Source: Flectonema sp. DT1601 (taxonomy: Eukaryota). Taken from it: 64,000 nt of DNA. A program made the position numbers and the translations under genes. The stretch covers positions 1-64,000 of the forward strand of contig OZ025784.1 of NCBI GenBank assembly GCA_964019425.1, written 5' to 3'. Each line of letters starts with the position of its first letter. The stretch's first letter is position 1. Under the pieces are notes generated by a model that ran no database searches, was not told where the DNA came from, and saw nothing but the letters and a program-made list of their open reading frames with translations. Shown piece after piece: positions 1 to 38,385 of the stretch.

Positions 1-263
1 TTACGGGTTTGCGGGTTTGCGGGTTTGCGGGTTTGCGGGTTTGCGGGTTTGCGGGTTTGCGGGTTTGCGGGTTTGCGGGTTTGCGGGTTTGCGGGTTTGC
101 GGGTTTGCGGGTTTGCGGGTTTGCGGGTTTGCGGGTTTGCGGGTTTGCGGGTTTGCGGGTTTGCGGGTTTGCGGGTTTGCGGGTTTGCGGGTTTGCGGGT
201 TTGCGGGTTTGCGGGTTTGCGGGTTTGCGGGTTTGCGGGTTTGCGGGTTTGCGGGTTTGCGGG
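1..263 (+). repeat. Telomere-like octamer tandem array (TTTGCGGG)n, left flank of the YR retrotransposon
   Basis: About 32 near-perfect TTTGCGGG units from the window start, ending at ...TTTGCGGG|GAACC. Confidence 0.97.
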
Positions 264-625
264 GAACCGCTCTGCATTTTCTATGCGATATCTGCTATAG
301 AAATGTAAAAGTAATAATGAAATAGAAAACAGAGAGGGAGTAAGCAAGCAATTAATACTAAAGGAGAATGACGGAATCCAATTAAGGATAATTGAAATTG
401 ATCAGCTATATCGAATTCTGACATGCCGTCGTGTCTCATCCATAAAGTATATCGCAGCTGTGATGGGAGATGATGGTTGTGAATTATAGTAATCGATAAT
501 TGAAGTATTGTCCACGTACGAAGTATATTCATTTGCGACGGGGGTAGCAGGGCGCCACAGAGGCGAAATCGTCCGGACCAGGCTGCGAAAGGCATGCATG
601 GCCACGGGACGGGGGCGCCGTCACG
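262..625 (-). repeat. Split direct repeat B2 (364 bp)
   Basis: Matches 820-1183 at offset 558, from GGGAACCGCTC to GGCGCCGTCACG. Confidence 0.95.
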
Positions 626-642
626 GGGGTCGGGTGGGTGGG

Positions 643-821
643 AACAAAAAAGTTGTTTTCTTTAAAGCAAAGCCAGCCAAACCTGAAAGTAGAAAGAACA
701 ATATTCACCAGAGAATAACGGCGAAATAAAGTAAAATCTCTTTACAAGAAGTCGGCGCCAAGCGCTAAATCAAGGCTGTGATATCGCTATGCCATTTGAG
801 CTGTTCCCTGTAAAGGTGAGG
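643..821 (-). repeat. Split direct repeat A2 (179 bp)
   Basis: Matches 5339-5517 at offset 4696, from AACAAAAAAGTTG to TAAAGGTGAGG. Confidence 0.95.
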
Positions 822-1183
822 GAACCGCTCTGCATTTTCTATGCGATATCTGCTATAGAAATGTAAAAGTAATAATGAAATAGAAAACAGAGAGGGAGTA
901 AGCAAGCAATTAATACTAAAGGAGAATGACGGAATCCAATTAAGGATAATTGAAATTGATCAGCTATATCGAATTCTGACATGCCGTCGTGTCTCATCCA
1001 TAAAGTATATCGCAGCTGTGATGGGAGATGATGGTTGTGAATTATAGTAATCGATAATTGAAGTATTGTCCACGTACGAAGTATATTCATTTGCGACGGG
1101 GGTAGCAGGGCGCCACAGAGGCGAAATCGTCCGGACCAGGCTGCGAAAGGCATGCATGGCCACGGGACGGGGGCGCCGTCACG
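820..1183 (-). repeat. Split direct repeat B1 (364 bp)
   Basis: Copy of 262-625; begins at the RT ORF stop codon (1179-1181). Confidence 0.95.
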
Positions 1184-3935
1184 CCACCACCACATCGCGA
1201 GTCAAAAATTCCTGCACCGCAAGTTGGACATCACGCATATGAGCAAGAGAGTCTATCTTGCAAGGCTCAATGCGTGATGGGAGGTCGGCTGGGTTCTGTG
1301 CAGAAACGATGTATCTCATCTCAAATGAAATCTGTCGTTCCCTAAGAAATGTAATGGACTGAACTACTGCATCATTAAGTCGGCGGCATCTCATAGACAT
1401 CCGCTTGCGCGCAACGCCCAAAACCGATGTGTTGTCAATCCAGAACGCCACAGACCGCCCGTTGCAAGAATCCGGCAATGCCACAACAGTATTCCTGAGA
1501 GCCAGTGCCTCCAGAATATTAATATGTAGCGACTGCTCAGACGGCCCCCAGGAGTTCCCAAGAACGGTCACCTCAGCCGTCGCATCGTCAACGATCACAC
1601 CCCCCCAGCCACGAAGCGAGGCATCGATAAATACAGTAAAGAGCTTCTCCTGGTGGCTGAAAGGTTCGGAAATCAACCTCCCATTAACCGCTTCATTTGA
1701 CCATGATGCCAGCTCTCTCTGAACAGACCGTGGTATCCGTACAACATCAGAAGGTGCCCGTCTGCCGCTATTCAGGCTGTTCGAAATCCTTCGGATGAAC
1801 TTCATCGCAAACCAGAAAGCCCCTGGTGAGGTGGCCGAGATAGCGGAAGCATGCATGAGACGGCCCCCAAGGGACTCGATCGCACCTGCCCCCATCGATA
1901 AGAGGTCACACTCCATGATCTTCCTCCTAATCTTCTCACTGGCACGAACCTCATGGCTGCCATGGTCGAAGTCAACGCCAAGAAATGTATACTTCTGGGC
2001 CGCCGTATTGCTATCGGCCGGCTTCCATGTCAGGTTACAGCGATCAGCAGTCTCGTCCAAATTATAGGTCGCCGCGAGCACAGCGCCAGAATCACCAGTG
2101 TAGCGAATGTTATCAATGAAGATATCAACATCCACACCAGTCGCTGCCCACCCATCACTCACATAAGACGGATCACCAGCTGCTGCCGCCGCAAGCGTGT
2201 GCATGACTTCGGGAGCACACACATGCCCCATCGGCAGACGGCAGAGCTCATACCACAACCCGTCGGCTGCACGAAAGCGAAAAAGGTCACGCGCATCCTC
2301 TGGTATTTCAATGGCATAGAACCCGGTCTTAAAGTCCCTCGTCGTGGCACACTCAGCCCTCACGGAATCGAGGTAACCAGAAACGTGCCTGAGCGGAACC
2401 TTCGCCTTGTACAGCCCCTCTGCCCAGCGGTTCGCATCCCTCGTCCAGAGGATAAACCGCTGCCTCAGCCCCTCCGGCTTCTCCTCCAACACCGTGAACG
2501 GGACATTCCCTGATCGCCCGGGCCCAATCGCTACCCGAGCAACCGAGTGTTCAACAAGGAGGCCAGCATGCTCCGACGATAAAGATGATTCGGGAGGTTG
2601 CCTGCGCCTGCCAACTACAGGGTAGAAAGTCATCTTCCAAACTGTGTCAAACCTCTCCCTCGCATCAGCTGAAAGGCGGCTGCGCAATCCCTGAACATCC
2701 ATCGGCTCAATCGACCCCACGTGAAGAGGCGACCTACGTTCCCCCTCCGTCGCCGGAATACGTGTCCTCTTCCCCCTGCGGGCAATGCTATGCATCGAAG
2801 TGCCACGAGCGACGTTCCTACCCAGCGCAGTATACACATCCGCCTTACTCAAAGCAATCTCGTCACCTTCCAAGTCTGGAGAGCGCGTGCCGTGTCGACT
2901 GCATTCGAGCTGTACCTCAGCGTCGTTTGCGATATCGCCGGCCCTCCTTCCGAGTGCTTCAGGAGGCGAGACACCAGTACCGCATCGGTAATCCTCCCAT
3001 CTGCGAGGGCGGCCATCAGAACGGATGCCGCACCTCTTTTTATGGAGTGCCCTGTCAACCCTTCCATCCCAGGGACCTGTTGCCAGTGGTGCGCAATCCT
3101 CCCTGTTGTTGCCTCCGCGAGGAGGTCGAACGGGGACAGAAGCCTGACGAGAGCTGCAATCTCTCCCACCAAATCGCCCCGGATCACCGCCCACCTCGAA
3201 GCGACGTACGGGTTCCCGCGGCGGTGCTTCGGCAGGACCCCCCAATCCACAATCACCTCCGAGTCTTCGACCAAAATGAAGTGCTCTGATGTCAAGAGGC
3301 GCACCTCCCCCCAGCGAGATGCCGTCTTCCAGCAAACGAGAGCCGCCAGCCTCAGCTCCGGTCCCAGTTGCCGCACCCAACCTAGCAGTTGCTGCCTCGT
3401 CATCGGCCTTGCCTGCGTCACCGGAATCGACGCACCGTCCGTCCTCAAAGCGCCTGCGAGACTTAGAAGGGGCTGGTTCTCCACTCCCAGGTGACGGAAG
3501 ACACCCGACAGTGCCTTGGCATACTGAAGTTGCCCCTGGGGGCGGACACCTGTTGCCACGACGAATAGAGCCGCGGTCTCGGCATCGACGGGGAGCCCTC
3601 GCGACCGAGCCCATCTCTCCATCCTTCCCCAGAGGTTGCGTCTCTTCGACGTCGTCTCTGTTGCCCAGAGGTTGGCAATCACGATCCCGAGCCTTTCTAG
3701 AGCCACGTCGTAGTCGACGTCTGCCTCCCCAGTTCTTCCGGTATCGTGCTGCTCCCTGGCAATGTGCTCCAGCACAACCCTTCCAAAGAGCGATGGGATG
3801 CCCGGCGAACCCTTTGTAGCTGTAGTCACTACCACTGGGTGCCCACACCCGCCGGACCCTTGTCTTGGGGACATCCTCATAACGCTGCCAACCAGTGCCC
3901 CGTAGCTGGCTGGTTTTGTGGGGGCAAGGATTCAT
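1179..3935 (-). CDS. Reverse transcriptase-RNase H (pol) of the YR retrotransposon
   Basis: RT motifs DFKTGFYAI, RLPMGHVCAPEVMH, IFIDNIRY, YTFLGVDFD. DIRS-type RNase H motifs VFIDASLRGWGG, HINILEALA, WIDNTSV, NPADLPSR. The N-terminal ~370 aa overlap the YR ORF, so the true start is uncertain. Confidence 0.9.
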   Translation of the reverse strand: MNPCPHKTSQLRGTGWQRYEDVPKTRVRRVWAPSGSDYSYKGFAGHPIALWKGCAGAHCQGAARYRKNWGGRRRLRRGSRKARDRDCQPLGNRDDVEETQPLGKDGEMGSVARAPRRCRDRGSIRRGNRCPPPGATSVCQGTVGCLPSPGSGEPAPSKSRRRFEDGRCVDSGDAGKADDEAATARLGAATGTGAEAGGSRLLEDGISLGGGAPLDIRALHFGRRLGGDCGLGGPAEAPPREPVRRFEVGGDPGRFGGRDCSSRQASVPVRPPRGGNNREDCAPLATGPWDGRVDRALHKKRCGIRSDGRPRRWEDYRCGTGVSPPEALGRRAGDIANDAEVQLECSRHGTRSPDLEGDEIALSKADVYTALGRNVARGTSMHSIARRGKRTRIPATEGERRSPLHVGSIEPMDVQGLRSRLSADARERFDTVWKMTFYPVVGRRRQPPESSLSSEHAGLLVEHSVARVAIGPGRSGNVPFTVLEEKPEGLRQRFILWTRDANRWAEGLYKAKVPLRHVSGYLDSVRAECATTRDFKTGFYAIEIPEDARDLFRFRAADGLWYELCRLPMGHVCAPEVMHTLAAAAAGDPSYVSDGWAATGVDVDIFIDNIRYTGDSGAVLAATYNLDETADRCNLTWKPADSNTAAQKYTFLGVDFDHGSHEVRASEKIRRKIMECDLLSMGAGAIESLGGRLMHASAISATSPGAFWFAMKFIRRISNSLNSGRRAPSDVVRIPRSVQRELASWSNEAVNGRLISEPFSHQEKLFTVFIDASLRGWGGVIVDDATAEVTVLGNSWGPSEQSLHINILEALALRNTVVALPDSCNGRSVAFWIDNTSVLGVARKRMSMRCRRLNDAVVQSITFLRERQISFEMRYIVSAQNPADLPSRIEPCKIDSLAHMRDVQLAVQEFLTRDVVVA
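2849..3880 (-). CDS. Tyrosine recombinase (integrase) of the YR retrotransposon
   Basis: Catalytic R-K-HxxR-H-Y pattern: WKTASRWGEV, LPKHRRG, TGHSIKRGAAS, RLLKHS, TTLRYSS. Confidence 0.92.
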   Translation of the reverse strand: MRMSPRQGSGGCGHPVVVTTATKGSPGIPSLFGRVVLEHIAREQHDTGRTGEADVDYDVALERLGIVIANLWATETTSKRRNLWGRMERWARSRGLPVDAETAALFVVATGVRPQGQLQYAKALSGVFRHLGVENQPLLSLAGALRTDGASIPVTQARPMTRQQLLGWVRQLGPELRLAALVCWKTASRWGEVRLLTSEHFILVEDSEVIVDWGVLPKHRRGNPYVASRWAVIRGDLVGEIAALVRLLSPFDLLAEATTGRIAHHWQQVPGMEGLTGHSIKRGAASVLMAALADGRITDAVLVSRLLKHSEGGPAISQTTLRYSSNAVDTARALQTWKVTRLL

Positions 3936-5332
3936 TTTCCCCTGCCCAACTGCCCGTTTTTTGAACTTGGAACATACGCCCTTGGAGGAGCAGCCGGTGG
4001 CCCCTTATGGGTCGCCCCCACCCGGTGCCCCTTCGACACTTTCTGCGCTGCCTTCCTTGCCTGCGCTGTCGACGGGGTATCCCTCGCAGCATCAAGGGTT
4101 TCGTAGTATGCTTCAGCTCCCCGCGGCCCGTTCTCTGTGCGCAGCAGCTGCCACTCCATCATCTGGTGTAGTGCCGCTATGGCCCCTTCCGTACCTCCCA
4201 AAACAGCCCTCTCCACTGCATTCGCAAGCCTCTTCACTACCTCACTCGCAACTGCCCCAGAGCCCCCGGAATACCTCTCAACAATCGCGCGCCTCAGCAG
4301 CGAACGGCACACGTCATCACGCTCCGCATATCCCAGCCACAACTCCGCATTCCTCGCGATGTCCTCAACAGGTGCATGCGACGCGGCAATTTCCGGGTTC
4401 CAATGCTGCACCGACCAGCCCCCTGCCCTGAACTCCTCTGGTGTGAGGCGCCACAGCCCACTGTCGTTGTGCAAGACTGCAATCGTCACATCAGCCGGTG
4501 CCACGCAGACAACAATCCCTCTTGAGCCTCCGTCCGTAACCTTGGAGCCTACCACCATGCTTGGAGGAAAACCTTCTGTTACCTGTGGCTTTGTTGCAGC
4601 TTGCTGGATCGCTGCCGTAATGGAGCTCATCATTGAGTCCTGATCCGTCCTAACCGGCGGTGGCCCTTGTGGAACAACTTGCGGCCTTCCCATACCTGCC
4701 TTCAGGGTTTCAATCTCACCTTCCAGTCGTGCCATCACGGACTGCTGCTGCTGAACGAACCCCTGCATCATCTCCTCCATCCGTGTCTGGCGGGACTCCG
4801 CTTCCGTCATGTGCCGCCTTGTCGATTGCGCACCGCGATGTAGATCCGCAAACGCCTGACCAGCCTCGCTCCTCAGTCCTTGGATCTTCTCTTCGCCTTG
4901 GCGCAAGCTCTCAGCCGTTGCCTTCCTCAACACATCAGTGTCGACGCGCAAACTCTCCATTGCATCCGCAGCTTCATCATGGGTCACCAGGCGGTTCGAA
5001 TCCCCCGAAGCCAGGCGACTGCTTGCCTTCGCAGCCCGCTCCGCAACGCCGGCCCTATTCACCGAAGACATCATTGCCAACACTACCAACATCTTTTTGA
5101 TTGAAACTTTTTCAATCGCTGCATACTGCACCCCAAGGCAAAGGGCAACAGTAAGCCTAACCAGGCTCTGCAACTCCCTATCGGACTCCAACAAAGCCAA
5201 GTCAACTGGTATTGGTACAAGCTTCACCAACTTCACCAAGTCAACATGCTGTCTTTGCGGAACTTCTCCGACCCTCCGTCCCCATGCCTCAGCTAATGCT
5301 GACGGGAACTCGAAATCGTAGCTTTTTGCCAT
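3932..5332 (-). CDS. Gag-like ORF1 of the YR retrotransposon
   Basis: 466-aa ORF starting 7 nt inside A1, with a coiled-coil segment and a basic C-terminus. Assigned by position. Confidence 0.8.
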   Translation of the reverse strand: MAKSYDFEFPSALAEAWGRRVGEVPQRQHVDLVKLVKLVPIPVDLALLESDRELQSLVRLTVALCLGVQYAAIEKVSIKKMLVVLAMMSSVNRAGVAERAAKASSRLASGDSNRLVTHDEAADAMESLRVDTDVLRKATAESLRQGEEKIQGLRSEAGQAFADLHRGAQSTRRHMTEAESRQTRMEEMMQGFVQQQQSVMARLEGEIETLKAGMGRPQVVPQGPPPVRTDQDSMMSSITAAIQQAATKPQVTEGFPPSMVVGSKVTDGGSRGIVVCVAPADVTIAVLHNDSGLWRLTPEEFRAGGWSVQHWNPEIAASHAPVEDIARNAELWLGYAERDDVCRSLLRRAIVERYSGGSGAVASEVVKRLANAVERAVLGGTEGAIAALHQMMEWQLLRTENGPRGAEAYYETLDAARDTPSTAQARKAAQKVSKGHRVGATHKGPPAAPPRAYVPSSKNGQLGRGK

Positions 5333-5338
5333 TTAAAA

Positions 5339-5517
5339 AACAAAAAAGTTGTTTTCTTTAAAGCAAAGCCAGCCAAACCTGAAAGTAGAAAGAACAATAT
5401 TCACCAGAGAATAACGGCGAAATAAAGTAAAATCTCTTTACAAGAAGTCGGCGCCAAGCGCTAAATCAAGGCTGTGATATCGCTATGCCATTTGAGCTGT
5501 TCCCTGTAAAGGTGAGG
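5339..5517 (-). repeat. Split direct repeat A1 (5' terminus of the element)
   Basis: Copy of 643-821. Contains a minus-strand pyrimidine tract plus AG (TTCTTTCTACTTTCAG) about 50 nt before the gag ATG. Confidence 0.95.
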
Positions 5518-6113
5518 TTTGCGGGTTTGCGGGTTTGCGGGTTTGCGGGCTTGCGGGTTTGCGGGTTTGCGGGTTTGCGGGTTTGCGGGTTTGCGGGTTT
5601 GCGGGTTTGCGGGTTTGCGGGTTTGCGGGTTTGCGGGTTTGCGGGTTTGCGGGTTTGCGGGTTTGCGGGTTTGCGGGTTTGCGGGTTTGCGGGTTTGCGG
5701 GTTTGCGGGTTTGCGGGTTTGCGGGTTTGCGGGTTTGCGGGTTTGCGGGTTTGCGGGTTTGCGGGTTTGCGGGTTTGCGGGTTTGCGGGTTTGCGGGTTT
5801 GCGGGTTTGCGGGTTTTGCGGGTTTGCGGGTTTGCGGGTTTGCGGGTTTGCGGGTTTGCGGGTTTGCGGGTTTGCGGGTTTGCGGGTTTGCGGGTTTGCG
5901 GGTTTGCGGGTTTGCGGGTTTGCGGGTTTGCGGGTTTGCGGGTTTGCGGGTTTGCGGGTTTGCGGGTTTGCGGGTTTGCGGGTTTGCGGGTTTGCGGGTT
6001 TGCGGGTTTGCGGGTTTGCGGGTTTGCGGGTTTGCGGGTTTGCAGGTTTGCGGGTTTGCGGGTTTGCGGGTTTGCGGGTTTGCGGGTTTGCGGGTTTGCG
6101 GGTTTGCGGGTTT
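5516..6113 (+). repeat. Telomere-like octamer tandem array (TTTGCGGG)n, right flank
   Basis: About 74 units with rare variants (CTTGCGGG near 5550, an extra T near 5815, TTTGCAGG near 6044). Confidence 0.97.
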
Positions 6114-6224
6114 CTCCTATATAATTGTCAGCATTGGGGATATTTTGGGTTCTGAGGAAATTCACCAAGTCCTGGGCCAGGTACCCAGGCCAGGCCTCAC
6201 CTAATTACACACTAATTCTTCTTT

Positions 6225-7070
6225 GCATTCCCGCAAGAAGGTCTGGTTCTAAGTGCAACATAAGTGTTGACTGGTGCCGCGCATTACGGAAAGAAAAGTA
6301 GCGTTGCATATTGACCTGTGGCAAGTCGGCGCTACCAAATGACAGTCTGATGATCCACGGCGGGCGGAAAGAAAATTGCTGTTATTTGCCTTTGTCACGG
6401 AATTTTTTTTTTTTTTTTTACCACTTTTTGTGCCACTCACCTCCAAAAAAACATGAGTACATCTTTTTTTTATGGTTATCTCTCGGTCTATCGGCCCCGA
6501 AAAGTCTTCACAAATTTCTGGGTGGAGAAAAAAGTTTTGCAGTTGTTTGCCAGCCAAGACTTACGCAGCACTGTAAGCTGGCCAGGCCTAGCTACTTCCG
6601 TACTGGGAATGAGGCTTCTGTTTCTTCCTGCTAGCAGGCCTGGTGCTAAGTGCTACGTAATAGTGTCACGCATTACAGGAATAATATTAGGTCGCCCAGA
6701 AGTGCTATGTAAGCGCCAGGCCTAGCTACTTCCGTACTGAGAATGAGGCTTCTGTTTCTTCCCGCAAGCAGGCCTGGTACTAAGTGCTACGTAAGTGTTG
6801 AATGGTGTCACGCATTACGGGAAGAAAGGTAGAGTGTTGCATGTTAACCTGTTGTAGGTTGGCACTACCAAATGACCTGATGACCCACGGGGGGGCGTTT
6901 GCGGAAAGAGAATTGCTGCTTTTGCAGTTATTTGCCTTTGTCATGGGTTTTTTTTTTTTTTTTTTTTACTGCTTTTTGTGCCACTCACCTCCAAGAAATC
7001 ATGGTTACACTTTTTTTATGGTTATCCCTTGGCCTATCGATCTCGAAAAGGCTTCACAAATCCCTGAGGA
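6225..7070. repeat. Diverged local duplications
   Basis: ~6228-6520 resembles ~6759-7065. 6581-6660 is nearly identical to 6715-6794 (GCCAGGCCTAGCTACTTCCGTACTG...CTAAGTGCTACGTAA). Confidence 0.75.
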
Positions 7071-7194
7071 GAATAGGTTTTAGAGTTTTGGTGCCAAGCT
7101 GTCTTTTTGTTATGGTTTAGACAATTTGGGTTTTAATAAATAATTCCTTTCATTTTTGCCACCTTTCTGCAATCAATGCTTTTGTAGCACCCCT

Positions 7195-8470
7195 GAGCAA
7201 GTTTTGGCTGCTAATTCTCTTCCCGCAAGCAAATTTTAGCTGCTTATTTTCTTCCCGCAAGCAAATTTTAGCTGCTGATTCTCTTCCCGCAAGCAGATCT
7301 TAGCTGCTTATTTTCTTCCCGCAAGCAAATTTTAGCTGCTTATTTTCTTCCCGCTAGCAAATTTTAGCTGCTTATTTTCTTCCCGCAAGCAAATTTTAGC
7401 TGCTAATTTTCTTCCCGCAAGCAAATTCTAGCTGCTTATTCTCTTCCCGCTAGCAGGTTTTAGCTTCTGATTTTCTTCCCGCAAGCAAATCTTAGCTACT
7501 TATTCCCTTCCCGCAAGCAAATCTTAGCTGCTTATTCTCTTCCCGCAAGCAAATTTTAGCTGCTTATTTTCTTCCCGCAAGCAAATTTTGGCTGCTTATT
7601 CTCTTCCCGCAAGCAAATTTTAGCTGCTGATTCTCTTCCCGCAAGCAAATTTTAGCTGCTAATTTTCTTCCCGCAAGCAAATTCTAGCTGCTTATTCTCT
7701 TCCCGCTAGCAGGTTTTAGCTGCTGATTTTCTTCCCGCAAGCAAATCTTAGCTGCTTATTCTCTTCCCGCAAGCAAATCTTAGCTGCTTATTCTCTTCCC
7801 GCAAGCAAATTTTAGCTGCTTATTTTCTTCCCGCAAGCAAATTTTGGCTGCTTATTCTCTTCCCGCAAGCAAATTTTAGCTGCTTATTCTCTTCCCGCAA
7901 GCAGATTTTAGCTGCTGATCTTCTTCCCGCAAGCAAATTTTAGCTGCTTATTTTCTTCCCGCAAGCAAATTTTGGCTGCTTATTTTCTTCCTGCAAGCAA
8001 ATTATGGCTGCTGATTCTCTTCCCGCAAGCAGATCTTAGCTGCTTATTTTCTTCCCGCAAGCAAATTTTAGCTGCCCATTTTCTTCCCGCAAGCAAATTT
8101 TAGCTGCTTATTTTCTTCCCGCAAGCAAATTTTAGCTGCTTATTCTCTTCCCGCAAGCAAATTTTAGCTGCTTATTTTCTTCCCACAAGCAAAATTTGGC
8201 TGCTGATTCTCTTCCCGCAAGCAAATTTTGGCTGCTTATTTTCTTCCTGCAAGCAAATTTTAGCTGCTTATTTTCTTCCCGCAAGCAAATTTTAGCTGCT
8301 TATTTTCTTCCCGCAAGCAGATTTTAGCTGCTTATTCTCTTCCCGCAAGCAAATTTTGGCTGCTTATTTTCTTCCTGCAAGCAAATTTTAGCTGCTTATT
8401 TTCTTCCCGCAAGCAAATTTTAGCTGCTTACTTTTTTCCTGCAAACAAATTTGAGCTGCCAATTTTCTTC
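7195..8470. repeat. 32-bp minisatellite, about 40 copies
   Basis: Consensus GCTGCTTATTTTCTTCCCGCAAGCAAATTTTA repeated in tandem with single-base variants. Confidence 0.95.
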
Positions 8471-10424: not shown

Positions 10425-10479
10425 TGCGGGTTTGCGGGTTTGCGGGTTTGCGGGTTTGCGGGTTTGCGGGTTTGCGGGT
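10425..10479 (+). repeat. Short interstitial (TTTGCGGG)n array
   Basis: About 7 units, same orientation as the long arrays. Confidence 0.93.
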
Positions 10480-11185: not shown

Positions 11186-14100
11186 ATGCCTCCACGCGGC
11201 GGTCTCGGACGGCAGAGACCGACTAAATTTTGCAACCAGATGGGAGGTGAAGTACTCTCACGGAAGGAAAGGAACCGGAAAGCACACACAGAGAACGGGA
11301 ACGGTAAGAAAGACAGGAAGACGAGCGTAGACACGAAGGAACGAGACGAGTTGAGGGAGAGACTCGCACGGGATGGCCTAAGAAGGCTGGATCGGGACGA
11401 AGACAGGAAGAAGGACGAGAAGGTCCTCAAGAAAAAACAGGCAGAGCAGGAAGAAGAGAAGAACGAACTGCTGCAACAACAAGAGCTCCTCTGCAAACAA
11501 CAGAGTGAGCTAGAAGTTAACTTCCAGAAGAAACAGGAAGAGTTATTCCAAAAGCAACAGCTTGAGGAAGTACTGACTAACCATCAGCAGCAACAACTTG
11601 TCAACCAGAAACAACTGGACCATCAACAGCAACAAAACCAGGAACATCTGCATCAACAACAGAAGGCTCTTACTCAGTACGAAGATGAACTCTGTCTGAA
11701 GCAACAACAGCAAGAACAGCAACTTAGCCATCAAGTCAAAAAGCAGCAGGAAATCCAACAGCAGCAGCAACAGCAACTTGATCAACAAGTCCAACAACAG
11801 CAGGATAAGCATATACAACAGCAACAACAACTTGAGCATCAAGTCCAACAACAACATCAAAACCAACAACATAGCCAAGAGTTGTTAAACCAACAACAAC
11901 AAGAACTGCTACAATATAAAGCAGACCTACAACAGAAGCAGGAACAAATCCTGATCCAACAACAGCAGCTCGAACAGCAGCACAGCAAGGAGAAGGCTGT
12001 CGAGGATGAATCTCTCCGAAGAAGAAGATGCCAACTCGAAGAAGACCAACGCCAACAACAACAAGAACAGTCCAGGATTCAACAGAATCTGCAACTGCAA
12101 CAGGTTAGCCTGGAGGAAAAACAACAGCTGCTTCAACATCAACTTAATGTGGAGTTGGAAAAGGGCAAACTGGACCAGCAGCAACAACAACAGAGACGGG
12201 AAGAAATCAAAAAGCAGGAAGATGACCTTGAGCATCAACGACCCCAACTACAACGCCAGCAGGAGGACGAGATGGAGAAGGGTAGGAAGGAACTCCAGTG
12301 TCTCAGGAACAAGCTAGACATGGAGTTCGAACAACAGAAGCTGTGTAGCCATCAACTCCAACAACAACAAGAAAAGGAGAAAGAACAAGGGAGGAAGGAA
12401 CTGCTCCAACTTCAACGGGAGCTTGGAAAGGAGTTCGAACAGCAGCAACAAGAAGACCAGAAGTCAAAGCTAGATCTGGAACTTCAAGAAGGAAAACTGC
12501 GACAACAGCAACAGAAGCTCCAACCCCAACAAAGCAGCCTACGTCAGCAAACGCATGCAATAAGCCAACCTCCGGTTTATTACATGCAGCACCAGCCTTA
12601 TGCACCGATGCATCAAAGGCAACCGTACCCGCCGGTACCTCCGCAACAACAGGGAATTGAACAACTCCGACTGGAGCTCCAGAAGGAGAGAGAAGAGAAG
12701 GGTGAGCTGAGGAAGTTGCTCATGGAACTCCAGACTCAGCTGAAAGAACTGAGACAGGAGTTGACCTCATCGAGAGCGCAGAGAAGCGAAGAAGTGAATG
12801 AGGTCGTAGTAGCCCCGAGCCAACCACCAGTGGGGATTGCCAACTTAGTGAACGGGTTGACCTACTCTCGCTCCTACGGCCTCACCACTGATGAATCGAA
12901 GGTCAGATCAGCTGTACAGAGGAACTGCACATCCGAGTGGGAATCACTTGAAAAGAAAGCGACGCAGTCGATGAAAGCTGTTGAAAAAGCCAGACGTCTC
13001 TGGGAGAAAACCAACAAGAAGGAGAGGGAAGTGTTGAACTCCTGGGGCCTGAGGGAAGTTGATTGGAACATTCCGGTCACGAAGTTTGAGGAGGTATCGA
13101 AAGGGAATCAAGGAGTAGCCCTTGCGACGCCTTCAGAGGCAAGAGATCTTCTGGGGATGAAGCCGGAGGTTCCTGCATGGAAAACGTGCAGCGTGGTAAC
13201 GCTAGACCAAGTGAATGGACAAGGAAGAAGGGAACACGTGCTATTATCGAGCAAGGATGGAAACAAGGTACATCGCATCTTCATTCATGACCTGGGTGAG
13301 GCGGCTCTACCAAAGGGTAAGCGGGGTATTAAATCGGTGAAGGCAATAGTGACCGCTCCTAAAAGAAGGTGGAAGGATGATAAGTGGCTTGAGTTAGCGA
13401 GTAAGCCCGAGCACCTCATCACAAAAGAAATGAAGGACACACCCGGCTTCATGGAAGCGTACAACTTCAGGGTAACGAAGAGTACGGTGTCGGCGGTCAT
13501 CCGACTGAGGAAACCCGGGGCAGTTGAACTGCTAAGAACCTCCGGAAAGGATGAGAGATTCTTGTGGATACAAGACGAAGGGGAGGCTCCGAAGGATACA
13601 GTTATTTGGCTTCAGGACGAGTGCTCTTTGAAGGAGGCAGTTGAACACCCTGATTCCCTGGAATCGTTGGGATTAGTCGAAAACCCTAAAGGTTTTGGTA
13701 TCAGAGTTTCACCGGAGCTGGAAGATGTAACCAGGGAAAAACTGGGAATCCCTGCAAAGCTCCCTGAATTAGAAATCTCGGGAATTCCATTAGATGTACT
13801 TCCCCGTGAAGCGGTAGCGCTGCTGGCGAAGGATGGGTGGCATGTGAGAGCAACCGTGGATGGAGTAAGGACTGGATACAGATGGATGAGGGTGCGTGCT
13901 GAAGTGCCGGATGACGACACGGTATTAATCGACGGTAGGGCATGTACGGTTGAGGTAGTTCAAAGACAAAATCGTAAGAAGCGCCAAGCTGCTAAAGAGG
14001 TGGATGCGAAGGAGAAAACTCAGCCAACATCAACTGCAGAGAGCACACCGGAAAAAGGCCTTACCCCGCCGGAGAAGAGACGTGATCCAACAGAGGGGGA

Positions 14101-14347
14101 GGCCTCTAATCGTTGCTACTTGCGAGCAGAATTCTTATCCTTTCATGGTAAGGGGAAGGGAAAGAGACTCTGGCGGGAAGCGGGTGTGAAGATTGAGGAG
14201 AGGAAAGGAGCCTTGAAGGAAGTAGGTCCTGTAGAGCAGGTTGTGATAAAGAAAACTGTGAAGAAGTCGACGGCTGAACAGGATACGATGGAACGAAGGA
14301 TGGATCGTTTAGAGATGCTGATGACGAGATTCTTGGAAGGTAAATGA
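11186..14347 (+). CDS. LINE-A ORF1, Gln/Glu-rich coiled-coil protein
   Basis: Open frame from 11015; likely ATG at 11186 (MPPRGG). Long Q-rich coiled coil, then a domain similar to LINE-B ORF1 (LLRTSGKD...VIWL...EAV...LGLV...GIRV...ISGIP). Confidence 0.82.
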   Translation: MPPRGGLGRQRPTKFCNQMGGEVLSRKERNRKAHTENGNGKKDRKTSVDTKERDELRERLARDGLRRLDRDEDRKKDEKVLKKKQAEQEEEKNELLQQQELLCKQQSELEVNFQKKQEELFQKQQLEEVLTNHQQQQLVNQKQLDHQQQQNQEHLHQQQKALTQYEDELCLKQQQQEQQLSHQVKKQQEIQQQQQQQLDQQVQQQQDKHIQQQQQLEHQVQQQHQNQQHSQELLNQQQQELLQYKADLQQKQEQILIQQQQLEQQHSKEKAVEDESLRRRRCQLEEDQRQQQQEQSRIQQNLQLQQVSLEEKQQLLQHQLNVELEKGKLDQQQQQQRREEIKKQEDDLEHQRPQLQRQQEDEMEKGRKELQCLRNKLDMEFEQQKLCSHQLQQQQEKEKEQGRKELLQLQRELGKEFEQQQQEDQKSKLDLELQEGKLRQQQQKLQPQQSSLRQQTHAISQPPVYYMQHQPYAPMHQRQPYPPVPPQQQGIEQLRLELQKEREEKGELRKLLMELQTQLKELRQELTSSRAQRSEEVNEVVVAPSQPPVGIANLVNGLTYSRSYGLTTDESKVRSAVQRNCTSEWESLEKKATQSMKAVEKARRLWEKTNKKEREVLNSWGLREVDWNIPVTKFEEVSKGNQGVALATPSEARDLLGMKPEVPAWKTCSVVTLDQVNGQGRREHVLLSSKDGNKVHRIFIHDLGEAALPKGKRGIKSVKAIVTAPKRRWKDDKWLELASKPEHLITKEMKDTPGFMEAYNFRVTKSTVSAVIRLRKPGAVELLRTSGKDERFLWIQDEGEAPKDTVIWLQDECSLKEAVEHPDSLESLGLVENPKGFGIRVSPELEDVTREKLGIPAKLPELEISGIPLDVLPREAVALLAKDGWHVRATVDGVRTGYRWMRVRAEVPDDDTVLIDGRACTVEVVQRQNRKKRQAAKEVDAKEKTQPTSTAESTPEKGLTPPEKRRDPTEGEASNRCYLRAEFLSFHGKGKGKRLWREAGVKIEERKGALKEVGPVEQVVIKKTVKKSTAEQDTMERRMDRLEMLMTRFLEGK

Positions 14348-14380
14348 CGGCACGTAGATGGAAGGAACTGGGCTGAGACT

Positions 14381-14432
14381 CGAAGACGCCTCTTGCTGAT
14401 AGCAGGGGGACGTTGAACGAAACCCAGGGCCG
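14381..14432 (+). other. 2A-like (StopGo) ribosomal skipping peptide
   Basis: GDVERNPGP is in the ORF2 frame (14406-14432). RRRLLLIAG lies directly before it, one nucleotide out of frame at the G5 run (14405-14409). Confidence 0.85.
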
Positions 14433-17400
14433 AATAGGAGAAAGGATGGTCCTTCTTGCAAACTGAATGTAATCAGTTGGAATTGTCGCACCATCTCGAA
14501 CAAAATGGAGTTCATTGGACACATCCTGAGTAAGCTTGACCCCGACGTACTTTGCCTTCAGGAGACTTCTTGCAGGATGGCATTGTTTCATTGGAACTAC
14601 GTTTGCTACAGGAGGGATAGGCCAGGAAGGGGAGGTGGCCTGATCACTTTAATAAAACGAGGAATTCAACATGATTGCTTTGATATCTCCATACCGTCGA
14701 TGAGAGGAACCGTCGAGTCGATGGGGGTCAGAATTAACGAAGACGTAAGTATTCTCAACATCTACTCCCCACCGAGCTCGAGGATAAATTTTGAACTATT
14801 CTCCCTGAAACGTGTTGGCAAGTTCATTCTCGCTGGTGACTTCAACGCACACCATAGGTACTGGTCCAAGAAAACCGACGTAAAAGGATGTGACCTTCTC
14901 AACTGGACAGGGCAAGAGGACCTCCTGATTGCGAACCCGCCAGGTCTAGCGACACTGCCGAGACATGGGACCTCGCCCGATCTGATCCTGCACCACGAGG
15001 AGATTCAACTGCTTAACTTTGAGCTGGTAGGTGAAGGAATTGAGCACGGTTCAGATCATTCACCACTCTCTGCTACCTTCGATACACTCTCACCCCTTGA
15101 GCCTTCGGGCAACCACGCGACGAAGAGATCGGTCTGGGACTTCAATACAGCTGATTGGTACTCATATGAACATGAACTAGACTACAGGTTTGGAAAGGTA
15201 AACAACTCTGCGAGCATTGGGAGAAGAGCGGTAACGTTCAACAGAATCGTTCTTGGAGTAGCGAAGAGGTACGTTAGGAGAAGGCTTCGGATCAAAGGGA
15301 AGAGAAGAAGAATGTGGAACGCTTCCACCCCTGATACCAAGCGTGCGAAGGGAAAATTTATCGCTGAACGGCTAGCAAAAGGTGAAGGCTTTGCATATGC
15401 GTTCAAAAAGATAAAGGACCTTGAGACGGATGAAGGACGTGAAATTCACATTCCGGAGTTTGACGAGAACCAACTACCTGCGAAGTTCTTGGAACAATTT
15501 GTTAAGACCCCGACAAAACGTAAACTAGGACCTCCGAATACGAAGAGCAGCGACTTCGCCAAAATCGGAGGGAATCTAACAATGACTGAACTGAAGCGAG
15601 CCATCAAGAAGGTAAGGCCCGGGAAAGCACCAGGTCCAGATGGAATCCATGGGATAATGTTGAAGAACTTATCGGTGATAGGAATGGATTTCCTCCTGGC
15701 GTTATTCAATGAATCGTGGCCAACGTCAAAGGTACCGAGGATCTGGAAGGAGGGTCTTATCAAGCCAGTTTACAAACCAGGAAAGCCAAAAGATAAGATC
15801 GCAAGTTTCAGACCGATCACGTTGACCTCGGTGGTGGGTAAAGTACTTGAAAGAGTGATTTATGATAGGTTGATGTATTGGCTTACCCAGAACAATGCCC
15901 TGTCGTCTATCCAGGCGGGTTTTAGAAGAGGAAGGAATACGTGTGAGCAGATTTCAATGTTAGTCAACGCTCTTCATGAGGCCAGTGAAAAGAACAAGAG
16001 CTCTGTTCTGCTGTCGTTCGACTTCACGGAAGCATTTGATAGAATTAATCATGAGAAACTGATCAAGAAGATGAAGAACATGCGTATTCCCTCCCCGTTC
16101 ATTGCATGGGTAGTTGACTTCCTGAAGGGCAGGCAGGCAAGAGTGAGTGCGAATGGCAACCTTAGCTCCTACAGAACGGTAACGAGGGGGGTTCCCCAAG
16201 GATCGATTATCGGTCCGCTGCTATACCTGATTTATGTTGATGACCTGGCGAAGTTGTTGGAGAAGACTGGCTCAGTTTCGGCTCTTTATGCAGATGACAC
16301 CGCTTGTGTAGTCTCTGATAAGGACGTTAATTTAACCAATAAGAAGGCGCAATGGATCCTTGGACTTGTGGATAGCTGGTGCAAAACCAATGATATGGCA
16401 CTGTCCGTCTCTAAGACATGTGGTATGCCTGTGCGCTGCCCGAAGGATATCTACTGGAGACTGGGCTTCCCCAGGACTGCAAAGGATAATTATTACGTTG
16501 TAAGCAGGGGGGATCTAGCTAAGATGATCAGACCGAATGAGTTTGGAAGGCCAATTCTGGGTAGTGGAGAAACCATTCTCAAGGTGGATGATACCGAAGT
16601 TGCTAATACGAAGGACCTGCTTGCAATTTTTCCTGATGGATCAAGTAAGCTGAGAGTAAAGTTGTTAACCGCAGTACTGATGCCGATGGTAGACAGCGTT
16701 AAATACCTGGGGGTGCACATTGATGGTGATTTATCTTATGGAACACAGGTCGGAAAGATGCTGGATGAGACCAGGAAGGGTCTTGCACTCCTGGGGAAAC
16801 TAGAACAGTATGATTTTGATTTTAAGACGCTGTGCATGGTCAAGAACCTGTACATACTTTCAAGGCTGTCATATGGGCTGGAGAGCTTCGGCCCTTTCCT
16901 ATCTGAGGGTCAGATTGATCTTGTGGACTTGAATCTGAAGAAGATTGCGAGAAGGATAACGGGTTGCAGCATCTACACCAGGTCTCTCCCACTGCTCTTG
17001 GAGGCGAACATGCTCCCTTTGAAACTGATAATAGAAAAACAGGCCAGAACTGCCCTGTTTAGATATAGATCGCTGAAGTGGGTACGTTCGACGAACCGAA
17101 TAGCGAAAGGATTCTGGAGTTCTAAGTTGCCGCAGGAAGATTGTAACATCGCCCTCCAAGGAATAGTTCAACCTGACAGCATCGAACCCTGGGCGGATGT
17201 ACCAAATCTAGAGATATCCTGTGGGTATGGTCATAACAAGACCGGTGATGCAGATGTGGATAGGAACAAATTTGAGGAATACTGCAGGGACCTAGTCCCT
17301 TGCAACTCGGCTATATATGTGGACGGCTCACATGATCCTGCTAACTACACTGCGGGTGCGGCAGCAGTACAGGTCTCACCAACTGAGAGAACGATGTCGT

Positions 17401-18236
17401 CAAGACTTGTAGCTACTGAAAGCAGCTACAAGGCTGAACAAGTAACACTCAAACTGCTGATGAGAGAAATTGGCAAAGCTGACTCGATCTTGGGTCCCAG
17501 GTCAGGTATTACCAGAATCTTCAGTGACTCGAAATCCAACCTGGAGGAACTCAATGGAGGGATTGTTGCCCAGAGGAAGTTGAACTCTCTGTTAATACTG
17601 GAAAGCATTAGGGATCTGAAGACACAGGTGCATCTCCAGTTTATCCCGGCCCATGTGGGGATTGAACCACACGATAAGGCTGATAAGCTGGCCAAAGAAG
17701 TCTCGAAGGATGCCGAAAGTAAACCGGTCTCAACGACCATGGATTTCTTCGCCCACAAATCAAGGGTAGCAAGGGAGTCTCACAGGAAGTTGATAGGAAA
17801 GATGATGGAAGCCTCCGAGAAGGCAAAGCCTCCAATGAAACGGGTGATGCTCAGACAGTATCTGGAGGCGACCGGAGGATTGAGAACTGCCAGATATCCG
17901 AAAGACATGCTGAGGGCTTCGGAAGTAAGAATTGCACAATTCAGAACGGGTTCACACCCCTTGCTGAGAGACAAAGGCGTACAACTGAAGTGCCCTTTTT
18001 GTAGACGGACGGACTCATCACCTAGACACTTGATGTTTAACTGCATGAACTCTGCTCTGGTACGCATCAGAAATGGAACAATTGGATCTGTCATGGAAGA
18101 AGCGAAGATTTCAAAGAAGGAACACAGCCTGCTATTTATGTTCGCTACGAGGAACTTACATTCCCTCGCTGGCTTCATATGGCATTTAGAACAATGGACG
18201 GCAACAAGCTGTTATCAGAAGTTACTATCTTTTTAG
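14403..18236 (+). CDS. LINE-A ORF2: AP endonuclease, reverse transcriptase, RNase H, C-terminal Cys/His motif
   Basis: The frame is open from 14403 and includes ISWNCR upstream of the ATG at 14505. Motifs LCLQET, GDFNAH, SDHSP, KAPGPDG, FRPITL, GVPQGS, YADD, KYLGV, YVDGS, FSDS, FIPAH, CPFC...H...C. Confidence 0.93.
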   Translation, partial: QGDVERNPGPNRRKDGPSCKLNVISWNCRTISNKMEFIGHILSKLDPDVLCLQETSCRMALFHWNYVCYRRDRPGRGGGLITLIKRGIQHDCFDISIPSMRGTVESMGVRINEDVSILNIYSPPSSRINFELFSLKRVGKFILAGDFNAHHRYWSKKTDVKGCDLLNWTGQEDLLIANPPGLATLPRHGTSPDLILHHEEIQLLNFELVGEGIEHGSDHSPLSATFDTLSPLEPSGNHATKRSVWDFNTADWYSYEHELDYRFGKVNNSASIGRRAVTFNRIVLGVAKRYVRRRLRIKGKRRRMWNASTPDTKRAKGKFIAERLAKGEGFAYAFKKIKDLETDEGREIHIPEFDENQLPAKFLEQFVKTPTKRKLGPPNTKSSDFAKIGGNLTMTELKRAIKKVRPGKAPGPDGIHGIMLKNLSVIGMDFLLALFNESWPTSKVPRIWKEGLIKPVYKPGKPKDKIASFRPITLTSVVGKVLERVIYDRLMYWLTQNNALSSIQAGFRRGRNTCEQISMLVNALHEASEKNKSSVLLSFDFTEAFDRINHEKLIKKMKNMRIPSPFIAWVVDFLKGRQARVSANGNLSSYRTVTRGVPQGSIIGPLLYLIYVDDLAKLLEKTGSVSALYADDTACVVSDKDVNLTNKKAQWILGLVDSWCKTNDMALSVSKTCGMPVRCPKDIYWRLGFPRTAKDNYYVVSRGDLAKMIRPNEFGRPILGSGETILKVDDTEVANTKDLLAIFPDGSSKLRVKLLTAVLMPMVDSVKYLGVHIDGDLSYGTQVGKMLDETRKGLALLGKLEQYDFDFKTLCMVKNLYILSRLSYGLESFGPFLSEGQIDLVDLNLKKIARRITGCSIYTRSLPLLLEANMLPLKLIIEKQARTALFRYRSLKWVRSTNRIAKGFWSSKLPQEDCNIALQGIVQPDSIEPWADVPNLEISCGYGHNKTGDADVDRNKFEEYCRDLVPCNSAIYVDGSHDPANYTAGAAAVQVSPTERTMSSRLVATESSYKAEQVTLKLLMREIGKADSILGPRSGITRIFSDSKSNLEELNGGIVAQRKLNSLLILESIRDLKTQVHLQFIPAHVGIEPHDKADKLAKEVSKDAESKPVSTTMDFFAHKSRVARESHRKLIGKMMEASEKAKPPMKRVMLRQYLEATGGLRTARYPKDMLRASEVRIAQFRTGSHPLLRDKGVQLKCPFCRRTDSSPRHLMFNCMNSALVRIRNGTIGSVMEEAKISKKEHSLLFMFATRNLHSLAGFIWHLEQWTATSCYQKLLSF

Positions 18237-37000: not shown

Positions 37001-38381
37001 ATCATCGTGAAATGTGAATTACCACTACCAGACACGCAGTCTGCAGTACAGGAGTATAACTTTCTCCAAACTGGTATTTGGTCGATTCCTGTTCTGTTTT
37101 CTTCTTTCAGAAGTATTCGTTCTTCTCTCGAAGAGAAGCAAATTTCGAACTTGTTCCCAACAGTCTTCGGTAGTCTGACATATGCATACGAGTGTTTTGT
37201 TGAAGATCCAGAAGTTGGTAAAACAGTTAAATTAAAACTGTTGACGTTGTTATAAAGACCCCAACTACTCCAACTATCAACAAGAGGATTACCGTACTGG
37301 GTTCCAAAGATTCCCATCCCACCTGATGTTGATCCTTCGATTAATCCAATGCTACCATCTGAACTCCAGGTTCCGTTGTTTTCGATAAACGAGCTTCCGA
37401 GATACGATTTTAACGGAGATTGAAATTCATAAGTACACGGATTACCTTTCGGTACGATCTTCAAAGAGTCACCAGATCCGCACTCCATCAGTGAATTTGT
37501 ATCAGAACTTCCACAAGACGAGGGAGAGTAAGTGAAATTCCAATGTTCTTCCAAACTCAATAGTTGTATGATGGCATACTGACCAACAGATGGTTCTGGA
37601 ATGTTATACCAGGCGTTGGAAGGTTTCGAAGTAAAAATAAAAACATCACCGACCTGGAATAGCGTCCAGTCAGGAATCTGAGTATCCCAAAAAGGATCGT
37701 CAGCCAAATCTGCTTTGAAACAAATAACGAAAGGTGTTGAAGAAGAGGGAGCATCGATAGTGATATGAGCAGCATCGACGTGAGTTTGATTTGTTTCTGT
37801 TTCGAGAGACAAACCGAAACCATTTCTGGTTTGTAGAGGAGAACTACTTGAGAGGTATTGATTACAATTATCACCACCAGATGAAGCAGACCACTCAAAT
37901 ACTTTCACAGCAACTGACGAGTCATCGCTGGTGTTGAAGTAGTTGGAGGCAGTTCCGTCTGTCGGTGAAATTGTTTTTATTTGAATTCTAACTTCCTGAC
38001 CCTCAACAAAACTATTCGATGAAATATCCATCGAAAAGTTATATCGTCGAAGAGTATTAGAAACTGACATCGAAGAACTAATTGTTGGCAACGACATCGA
38101 CATCGTCATACTCGAAGACGACGTCGGAAGCGACACCGTACGAGATTGTGTTATCGAAAGAGAACTTATCGACTTCGACTCAGAAAACGAACCACTTTCA
38201 GAACCCGACAAAGAATCAGAATAAGAAACAGATTTTGAATTAGAAATTGTTTTTGTTGGTAAAGACAACGATTCCGTAACTGTGTCTGACAAGCTTCCCG
38301 ACTCAGTCAGGGTCACTGTCGCCGTCCCAACACCTCCAACAGCAATTGTCATTAGACACATTCCAATTACAGTTTTCAATA

Positions 38382-38385
<4 letters not shown>
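25049..38385 (-). CDS. Giant (~4,400 aa) Ser/Thr-rich secreted or surface protein with repeated Cys-containing modules
   Basis: N-terminal signal-like peptide, Ser/Thr stalk, repeated (Y/F)x(I/V)C(F/Y) motifs. A predicted GT-AG intron at 25333-25391 joins a Pro/Thr-rich last exon ending in a hydrophobic tail (LFVLLSTLFVVILQL). Confidence 0.85.

What the first reader, a model, noticed from the sequence alone, without database searches (positions are those of the whole stretch)
240..5540. Intact YR retrotransposon integrated site-specifically into a (TTTGCGGG)n array via a GG core
Seen in sequence: left junction TTTGCG-GG-GAACC, right junction GGTGA-GG-TTTGCG, internal B1/A2 junction GGTGA-GG-GAACC. 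These are exactly the products of one crossover between a circle junction and the target TTTGCG-GG-TTTGCG at a shared GG, with no target loss. Known: Ngaro/VIPER-type elements have A1...B1-A2-B2 split repeats, and Leishmania TATEs insert into telomeric hexamers. Inference: a young TATE-like family (open ORFs, matching repeats) targeted to a different, 8-bp telomere-like repeat.
Basis: partly seen in the sequence, partly recalled or inferred. Interest (0 to 1): 0.85.

Follow-up and report, generated by a model that had tools for sequence, protein, structure and literature searches.

The report
Intact VIPER retrotransposon inside octamer repeat
An intact, recently copied jumping gene of the VIPER type, in what is likely a diplonemid (marine protist) genome, sits exactly in phase inside an 8-base tandem repeat that it likely uses as a preferred landing site, a habit so far described for its sister family TATE rather than for VIPER.

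Summary
A 5,256-bp element (262-5517, minus strand) has three open frames (gag-like 466 aa, tyrosine recombinase, RT/RNase H) and perfectly identical split direct repeats, A1...B1-A2-B2 (179 and 364 bp). Both ends and the internal B1/A2 junction fit one crossover at a shared GG into (TTTGCGGG)n, with no gain or loss. The recombinase model has a Cre-like fold with conserved catalytic-type residues, and four RT copies 99.6-100% identical exist on four contigs, so the family is young.

Two corrections. By motifs, ORF sizes and layout it is a VIPER-lineage element, not TATE; its closest named relatives are Diplonema papillatum proteins. The array is not a canonical telomere: its G-strand points inward and a short empty copy lies at 10425-10479.

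Family-wide targeting is likely but unproven: only one insertion could be read. Arrays hold 4.5% of the window's GG/CC sites, and T. cruzi VIPER ends sit in unrelated flanks (6 of 6 read). New side observations, shared by eye with T. cruzi VIPER and Leishmania TATE: a G-quadruplex-type spacer motif and an in-phase slippery heptamer at the gag end.

The parts
4..263 (+). (TTTGCGGG)n array, left flank; runs to the window edge and probably beyond
   Evidence: 32.5 units, 100% matches
262..263 (+). GG core of the left junction (B2 end of the element)
262..625 (-). Repeat B2, 364 bp, identical to B1
626..642 (-). Unique 17-nt spacer between A2 and B2; with base 625 the + strand forms a four-run G-quadruplex-type motif
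   Evidence: C-rich counterpart seen by eye in T. cruzi VIPER and L. braziliensis TATE
643..821 (-). Repeat A2, 179 bp, identical to A1
820..821 (+). GG overlap of B1 and A2: internal copy of the predicted circle junction
820..1183 (-). Repeat B1, 364 bp
1179..3935 (-). ORF3, RT/RNase H, 918 aa from the first Met (open from 4004, 941 aa); FIDN at 629-632 and RNase H-type acidic motifs at 794, 832, 857, 907 (numbering from 4004)
   Evidence: Pfam RT_RNaseH E 0.0078 and RVT_1 E 0.1, both under the curated cut-offs; 30% identity over 638 aa to Leptomonas P0258
2849..3931 (-). ORF2, tyrosine recombinase, 360 aa stop to stop, in the gag frame directly after the gag stop and overlapped by ORF3; R206, K235, H295, K298/R299, H326, Y340
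   Evidence: AlphaFold model pLDDT 83 matches Cre, Tn1549 Int, lambda Int, Xer
3956..3962 (-). A_AAA_AAC heptamer in phase with the gag frame, candidate -1 frameshift site into ORF3
   Evidence: same heptamer at the ORF1 end of T. cruzi VIPER and L. braziliensis TATE by eye; function untested
3932..5332 (-). ORF1, gag-like by position, 466 aa; its stop overlaps the first ATG of ORF3
   Evidence: no curated Pfam hit, no CCHC box, no Atlas hit
5339..5517 (-). Repeat A1, 179 bp; holds a pyrimidine tract and CAG ending at 5379, 46 nt before the gag ATG (candidate splice acceptor, inferred)
5516..5517 (+). GG core of the right junction (A1 end of the element)
5516..6113 (+). (TTTGCGGG)n array, right flank, in phase with the left array
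   Evidence: 74.6 units, 98% matches
10425..10479 (+). Short empty interstitial copy of the same octamer array

Best explanation
This is an intact VIPER-lineage retrotransposon with three open frames and identical split direct repeats, lying in phase inside a (TTTGCGGG)n array; it was likely inserted by its own predicted tyrosine recombinase through one crossover at a shared GG between a predicted circular DNA copy and the array, which the family likely prefers as a target. Shown: the anatomy, the three matching junctions, no gain or loss of target, and near-identical sister copies. Inferred from the DIRS-order model: the RNA is reverse-transcribed, the internal B1/A2 junction templates the missing ends, the copy closes into a circle whose junction is GGTGA-GG-GAACC, and the recombinase exchanges strands with TTTGCG-GG-TTTGCG. 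Inferred and weakest: that the flanking octamer, not just the GG, is recognised. Further inferred: RT is made by a -1 frameshift at A_AAA_AAC or by re-initiation at the overlapping stop/start, and the recombinase by readthrough or an internal start. The array is an interstitial G-rich satellite, probably a harmless multicopy landing place, not a canonical telomere.
For: Junctions and exact repeats; in-phase empty site. Recombinase: invariant R206, K235, H326, Y340 and near-invariant H295, R299 among 35 aligned sequences; Cre-like fold, best E 8.6e-07, 54 matches at E<=0.001. Youth: cluster of 4 RT proteins on 4 contigs with 0, 3, 3 and 1 substitutions against the window over 756-918 aligned residues. 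VIPER: ORF sizes 466/360/941 against 446/335/942 for the T. cruzi consensus (PMC5146736 passage) and 450/982/954 aligned for L. braziliensis TATE (PMC6681497 Table 2); motifs TASRW, HSIKRG, RLPMG, IDNIR shared with Additional file 10 (VIPER) copies and absent from the TATE copy in Additional file 11, read by eye. Targeting: arrays are 914 of 58,746 host bases and hold 4.5% of GG/CC sites; a three-base GGG match was available one base away but the two-base register was used; precedents are TATE and nimavirus recombinases in (TAACC)n (PMC10871703 passages).
Against: Only 1 of at least 4 copies could be read with flanks. The closest well-studied relative is not repeat-targeted: 6 of 6 T. cruzi VIPER B-ends that show a flank run into unrelated sequence (6 of 15 places shown). 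DIRS1-type elements are modelled to need only a 3-bp match (PMC3266345 passage). The region is repeat-rich and gene-poor, so random insertions survive there more often. No circle, RNA or enzyme activity was observed. No TATE protein could be placed in the tree, so VIPER versus TATE rests on motifs read by eye. The hairpin after the slippery site folds no better than shuffles (z -1.09). Two of the four RT copies are shortened (795 and 765 aa).
Confidence: 0.62

Rival explanations
1. Same element and same recombinase crossover, but the family needs only a GG core (or a loose G-rich preference) and this copy landed in the array by chance, as T. cruzi VIPER lands in unrelated sites.
For: T. cruzi VIPER B-ends have unrelated flanks, 6 of 6 read. 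The array offers two GG per 8 bases. Short-core integration is the standard DIRS-order model. One observation only.
Against: Arrays hold only 226 of 5,035 GG/CC sites in this window, and the window probably over-represents the array. A sister family, TATE, shows that repeat targeting with a 2-nt core exists in this group.
Confidence: 0.3
2. A TATE family member inserted in this organism's telomere, with TTTGCGGG as the telomeric unit.
For: 2-nt duplicated core in a G-rich tandem repeat, as for TATE; the array reaches the window edge; D. papillatum is reported to hold TATE-like ORFs (PMC10161547 passage).
Against: YR is 360 aa, not about 980; motifs are VIPER-type. The G-rich strand reads from the left edge into 58 kb of genes, the reverse of a chromosome end (established knowledge of telomere polarity). 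An interstitial copy lies at 10425-10479. Single copy here, not a tandem cluster.
Confidence: 0.04
3. The placement is secondary: the array grew around an older insertion, or the assembler joined sequence through octamer arrays.
For: The left array is perfectly uniform and runs off the window; long arrays are weak points of assembly; no laid contig bridged a junction because the junctions were not in the stretch laid.
Against: Both ends match the internal junction to the base and the two arrays are in phase, which a misjoin or later growth would not be expected to give. Repeats are 100% identical, so the insertion is recent. The right array carries point variants, so it is probably older than the insertion.
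Confidence: 0.04

Closest known systems
VIPER (T. cruzi, Crithidia fasciculata, Leptomonas, Angomonas; VIPER-like superfamily, order DIRS)
   Same: gag-YR-RT/RH with YR and RT overlapped; A1...B1-A2-B2 repeats (T. cruzi A 173, B 219 bp; here 179, 364); short unique spacer between A2 and B2; near-equal ORF sizes; same YR and RT motifs; same gag stop/RT start overlap and YR in the gag frame (by eye).
   Different: Host outside kinetoplastids (RT groups with D. papillatum proteins, SH-aLRT 96-99, apart from the trypanosomatid clade); about 30% RT identity to the Leptomonas protein; no CCHC box; GG core; sits in a tandem array whereas T. cruzi ends have unrelated flanks.
TATE (Leishmania braziliensis)
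   Same: Split direct repeats; precise in-phase insertion in a G-rich tandem repeat with a 2-nt core at both ends (TT there; PMC2696322 passage; TT overlap also seen by eye at its B1/A2 junction); C-rich motif after A2 and heptamer at ORF1 end (by eye).
   Different: Different YR and RT motifs; much longer YR ORF; target is telomeric GGGTTA with tandem clusters at chromosome ends, here an interstitial octamer and a single copy.
Ngaro and PAT-like elements
   Same: A1-[ORFs]-B1A2B2 repeat layout and tyrosine recombinase (PMC8547959 passage).
   Different: Gene order gag-RT/RH-YR in Ngaro (recalled, not from a call) against gag-YR-RT/RH here; sequence relatives found are euglenozoan VIPER-type.
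Endogenous nimaviruses with telomere-repeat tyrosine recombinases
   Same: Tyrosine recombinase linked to insertion in a simple G-rich repeat, (TAACC)n (PMC10871703 passages).
   Different: Large DNA viruses; their recombinases are stated to be not closely related to DIRS recombinases; no RT.

Membership tests
VIPER | Three ORFs: gag-like, then overlapped YR and RT/RH | tested here: met
VIPER | Split direct repeats A1 ... B1-A2-B2 | tested here: met
   definition in PMC6681497
VIPER | No target-site duplication beyond the short shared core | tested here: met
   definition in PMC12278014 passage
VIPER | VIPER-type YR and RT motifs and ORF sizes | tested here: met
   by-eye reading of Additional file 10, parts 1 and 3 of 6; sizes. 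The B. saltans copy in that file does not share the YR motifs
VIPER | RT/RH groups with VIPER to the exclusion of TATE in a tree | tested here: inconclusive
   quick tree of 34 rows with Leptomonas and Angomonas relatives but no TATE row; the search meant to fetch TATE returned 2 unnamed proteins
VIPER | CCHC box in gag (present in some VIPERs only) | tested here: not met
   also absent in several VIPERs per PMC6681497
TATE | TATE-type YR and RT motifs; long YR ORF | tested here: not met
   (one L. braziliensis copy read by eye)
TATE | Insertion in telomeric GGGTTA with TT duplication | tested here: not met
   target is the octamer, core GG; no doubled hexamer in the window
TATE | Tandem clusters at chromosome ends | tested here: inconclusive
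   single copy in the window; sequence left of base 1 and the rest of the genome not held
TATE-like behaviour | All copies at one register of one tandem repeat | not testable with these tools
Ngaro | YR downstream of RT/RH (recalled) | tested here: not met
   YR lies upstream of the RT/RH domains
DIRS1-like | Inverted terminal repeats and internal complementary region | tested here: not met
   only one weak 25-nt internal inverted pair; definition
Tyrosine recombinase superfamily | Integrase fold with R-K-H-R-H-Y catalytic set | tested here: met
   no sequence-level hit in Pfam or PDB; activity not tested

The most novel reading that the evidence does not exclude
A diplonemid VIPER lineage has, independently of TATE, evolved strict in-register targeting of a non-telomeric octamer satellite through a 2-nt GG core, and VIPER and TATE share two ancient cis-signals not found in my literature searches: a G-quadruplex-forming A2/B2 spacer on the cDNA strand and a -1 frameshift heptamer at the end of gag. 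That would give a short, defined pair of DNA sites for a direct biochemical test of integration by a eukaryotic YR retrotransposon.
Probability: 0.45. Interest if true: 0.62.

Novelty: new variant of a known kind. Interest (0 to 1): 0.45.

Why it matters
Integration by DIRS-order elements is still a model: the circular junction could not be amplified even for DIRS-1 (PMC7192593 passage). An intact, young element whose donor junction and target are both readable to the base is a clean substrate for testing it. If the family is repeat-targeted, target choice switched at least twice among VIPER-like elements, and comparing recombinases of the several young sister families in these assemblies could show what sets it. 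It also extends intact VIPER beyond kinetoplastids; my search for VIPER with Diplonema found two papers, neither on this by the passages or listing seen. If the other copies are dispersed, it is an ordinary new member of a known family.

Tried and rejected
No whole genome is held, so copies could not be collected. Sequencing runs: no RNA holder listed. Laying contigs of 4 runs on 626-5338 gave 12 contigs from X1 at depth about 2, 2 from X2 (exactly the two repeats), none from X3 or X4, and no loose ends, so no other flanks; one X1 break falls at 2845, the site of the K387R difference of P0083, a hint of a second copy only. Laying 4 runs on a host gene, 25300-38300, gave only 18-24-base chance matches; lack of cover is no evidence. 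Related loci: 1 of 46 candidate stretches in JGI metagenomes, a 1,630-bp contig without element ends; 0 of 27 in prokaryote genomes; 0 of 69 in viral contigs. PDB sequence search of the YR: 0 hits. Atlas search of ORF1: no usable hit. Profile search to fetch named TATE or T. cruzi VIPER proteins: 2 unnamed hits. The careful tree did not finish; the quick tree is used. Stimulatory hairpin: not better than shuffles. Earlier findings of the scan: none. Literature searches with nothing useful on this point: octamer string (unrelated primer hits in the 20 of 704 listed), G-quadruplex with VIPER (0), DIRS with slippery frameshift (0), DIRS target specificity (3), diplonemid telomeric repeat (the one diplonemid paper showed no 'telomer' passage). 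Rejected: homology-maximising insertion at GGG, which would give three G at each end, not four and two; canonical telomere, on strand polarity.
Full report
Observation. The element spans 262-5517 and reads on the minus strand. Two repeats are exact: 364 bp (262-625 = 820-1183) and 179 bp (643-821 = 5339-5517), with a unique 17-base spacer at 626-642. In the element's own direction this is A1, coding region, B1, A2, spacer, B2. The left end reads TTTGCG-GG-GAACC, the right end GGTGA-GG-TTTGCG and the internal B1/A2 junction GGTGA-GG-GAACC. The bases on either side of the GG differ between junction and target, so the shared core is exactly two bases. Removing the element and one GG leaves an unbroken octamer run. 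A three-base GGG match exists one base away and would have left three G at each end; the sequence has four and two.

Coding content. Three frames are open: ORF1 5332-3932 (466 aa), ORF2 3931-2849 (360 aa, same frame, directly after the ORF1 stop), ORF3 4004-1179 (941 aa; first Met at 3935, overlapping the ORF1 stop). ORF2 has no Pfam or PDB sequence hit. It has 36 homologues; in an alignment with 34 of them R206, K235, H326 and Y340 are invariant and H295, R299 nearly so. Its predicted model (pLDDT 83) matches Cre, Tn1549 integrase, lambda integrase and Xer (best E 8.6e-07). ORF3 has weak RT and RNase H hits under the curated cut-offs and carries FIDN and four RNase H-type acidic motifs (their roles are inferred from known RT/RNase H families). 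ORF1 is gag-like by position only.

Host and age. All 8 species-named hits among the 36 recombinase homologues, and all 4 among the 45 RT homologues, are Diplonema papillatum proteins at 47-52% identity, so the host is likely a diplonemid; no host gene was tested. The RT cluster has 4 members on 4 contigs: P0084 identical, P0037 and P0082 with 3 substitutions each, P0083 with 1; P0082 and P0083 are shortened. With perfect repeats, which PMC6681497 treats as a sign of recent activity, this shows a young family of at least four copies.

Which family. PMC6681497 (main text parts 1-3, 5, 6 of 9) gives VIPER and TATE the same repeat layout, so layout cannot separate them. Additional file 10 holds VIPER and file 11 TATE copies. 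Read by eye, the T. cruzi copy and a C. fasciculata copy encode TASRW, HSIKRG and AKH in the recombinase and RLPMG and IDNIR in RT, as here; the L. braziliensis TATE copy does not. The B. saltans copy in file 10 lacks these recombinase motifs, so they do not cover all elements filed as VIPER. ORF sizes match the T. cruzi consensus, 446/335/942 (PMC5146736 passages), not TATE's roughly 980-aa second ORF. A profile search found 782 proteins at E<=1e-30; 2 of 10 clusters looked up were trypanosomatid, Leptomonas and Angomonas, and the Leptomonas protein is 30% identical over 638 aa. In a quick tree of 34 chosen RT rows the window groups with D. papillatum proteins (SH-aLRT 96 and 99) apart from the trypanosomatid clade (100); no TATE row was available. 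I file it as VIPER lineage on motifs and anatomy, with the tree test open.

Mechanism. The DIRS-order model has a circular copy integrating by recombination between a short junction and an identical genomic sequence without target duplication (PMC3266345 and PMC7192593 passages). The three junctions here are what that model predicts, with the internal B1/A2 copy preserving the circle junction. The circle, the RNA and the enzyme activity are inferred, not seen. For expression, an in-phase A_AAA_AAC at 3962-3956 would shift gag into ORF3, and the stop/start overlap offers re-initiation; T. cruzi VIPER shows the same arrangement and TATE the same heptamer by eye. The hairpin 8 bases downstream is unremarkable against shuffles. 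The spacer gives a four-run G motif on the + strand at 625-642, one of only 2 such motifs in the window outside the octamer arrays; its C-rich mirror follows A2 closely in T. cruzi VIPER and L. braziliensis TATE by eye. Searches for these two features in print returned 0 papers; the library lacks most subscription journals.

Is the repeat the target? For: arrays hold 226 of 5,035 GG/CC sites in the window with the element removed; TATE inserts precisely in GGGTTA with a TT duplication (PMC2696322 passages); nimavirus recombinases go with (TAACC)n insertion (PMC10871703 passages). Against: this is one insertion; in Additional file 8 of PMC6681497 (cut when stored), 6 of the 15 places shown for the T. 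cruzi B-end had a flank, and all 6 differ; reviews describe VIPER as clustered with other retroelements, not as site-specific (PMC5814959, PMC3418195 passages). The flanks of the other copies were out of reach. I put targeting or strong preference at about two in three.

Telomere? The G-rich strand is the + strand at the left edge and reads into 58 kb of repeats and genes, opposite to a chromosome end (established knowledge), and an empty 55-bp copy lies at 10425-10479. Whether the octamer also caps chromosomes could not be tested. The neighbourhood, with a 32-bp satellite and two intact non-LTR elements, resembles the repeat blocks between gene clusters described for D. papillatum (PMC10161547 passages).

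Verdict. Real and well formed; a known kind of element in a new host group. It is a new variant if targeting holds and a new member if it does not. Other papers seen as passages only: PMC12278014, PMC13598402, PMC8547959. The unread .fas supplements of PMC6681497 bear on the VIPER-versus-TATE call.

Noticed in passing
window 625-642: The A2/B2 spacer is a four-run G-quadruplex-type motif on the + (cDNA) strand; a matching C-rich motif follows A2 in T. cruzi VIPER and L. braziliensis TATE (by eye). Function unknown.
   Followed up: partly
window 3962-3932: In-phase slippery heptamer, gag stop overlapping the RT start, and YR in the gag frame right after the stop; same layout in T. cruzi VIPER by eye.
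   Followed up: partly
window 5397-5379 (and the copy in A2): Pyrimidine tract plus CAG inside repeat A, 46 nt before the gag ATG: candidate trans-splice acceptor, which would remove most of A1 from the mRNA.
   Followed up: no
window 11186-18236 (+) and 24789-19043 (-): Two apparently intact non-LTR retrotransposons facing each other, each with an ORF1 without Pfam hit and an endonuclease-RT-RNase H ORF2.
   Followed up: partly
window 6184-8470: A diverged duplication with about 546-bp spacing, then a 32-bp satellite of 39.8 copies at 7196-8470.
   Followed up: no
window 25213-38385 (-): A 4,390-aa Ser/Thr-rich ORF with a hydrophobic N-terminus, possibly a giant surface protein; not scanned.
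   Followed up: no
P0038-P0043, P0065: Several further VIPER-type families at 52-65% RT identity, some with up to 11 near-identical members on long contigs; one contig length recurs in two clusters, so one genome may hold several young families.
   Followed up: partly
P0252, P0258-P0260: Leptomonas pyrrhocoris proteins named 'putative TOR kinase 1' in NCBI look like VIPER RT/RNase H proteins, probably mis-annotated.
   Followed up: partly
run X2 on window 643-1183: A run from another study holds both repeats with no other letters, so an element with identical repeats occurs in a second sample.
   Followed up: no
window 46552-47412 (-): A 286-aa ORF resembling the C-terminal part of the non-LTR ORF2 proteins; probably a retroelement remnant.
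   Followed up: no
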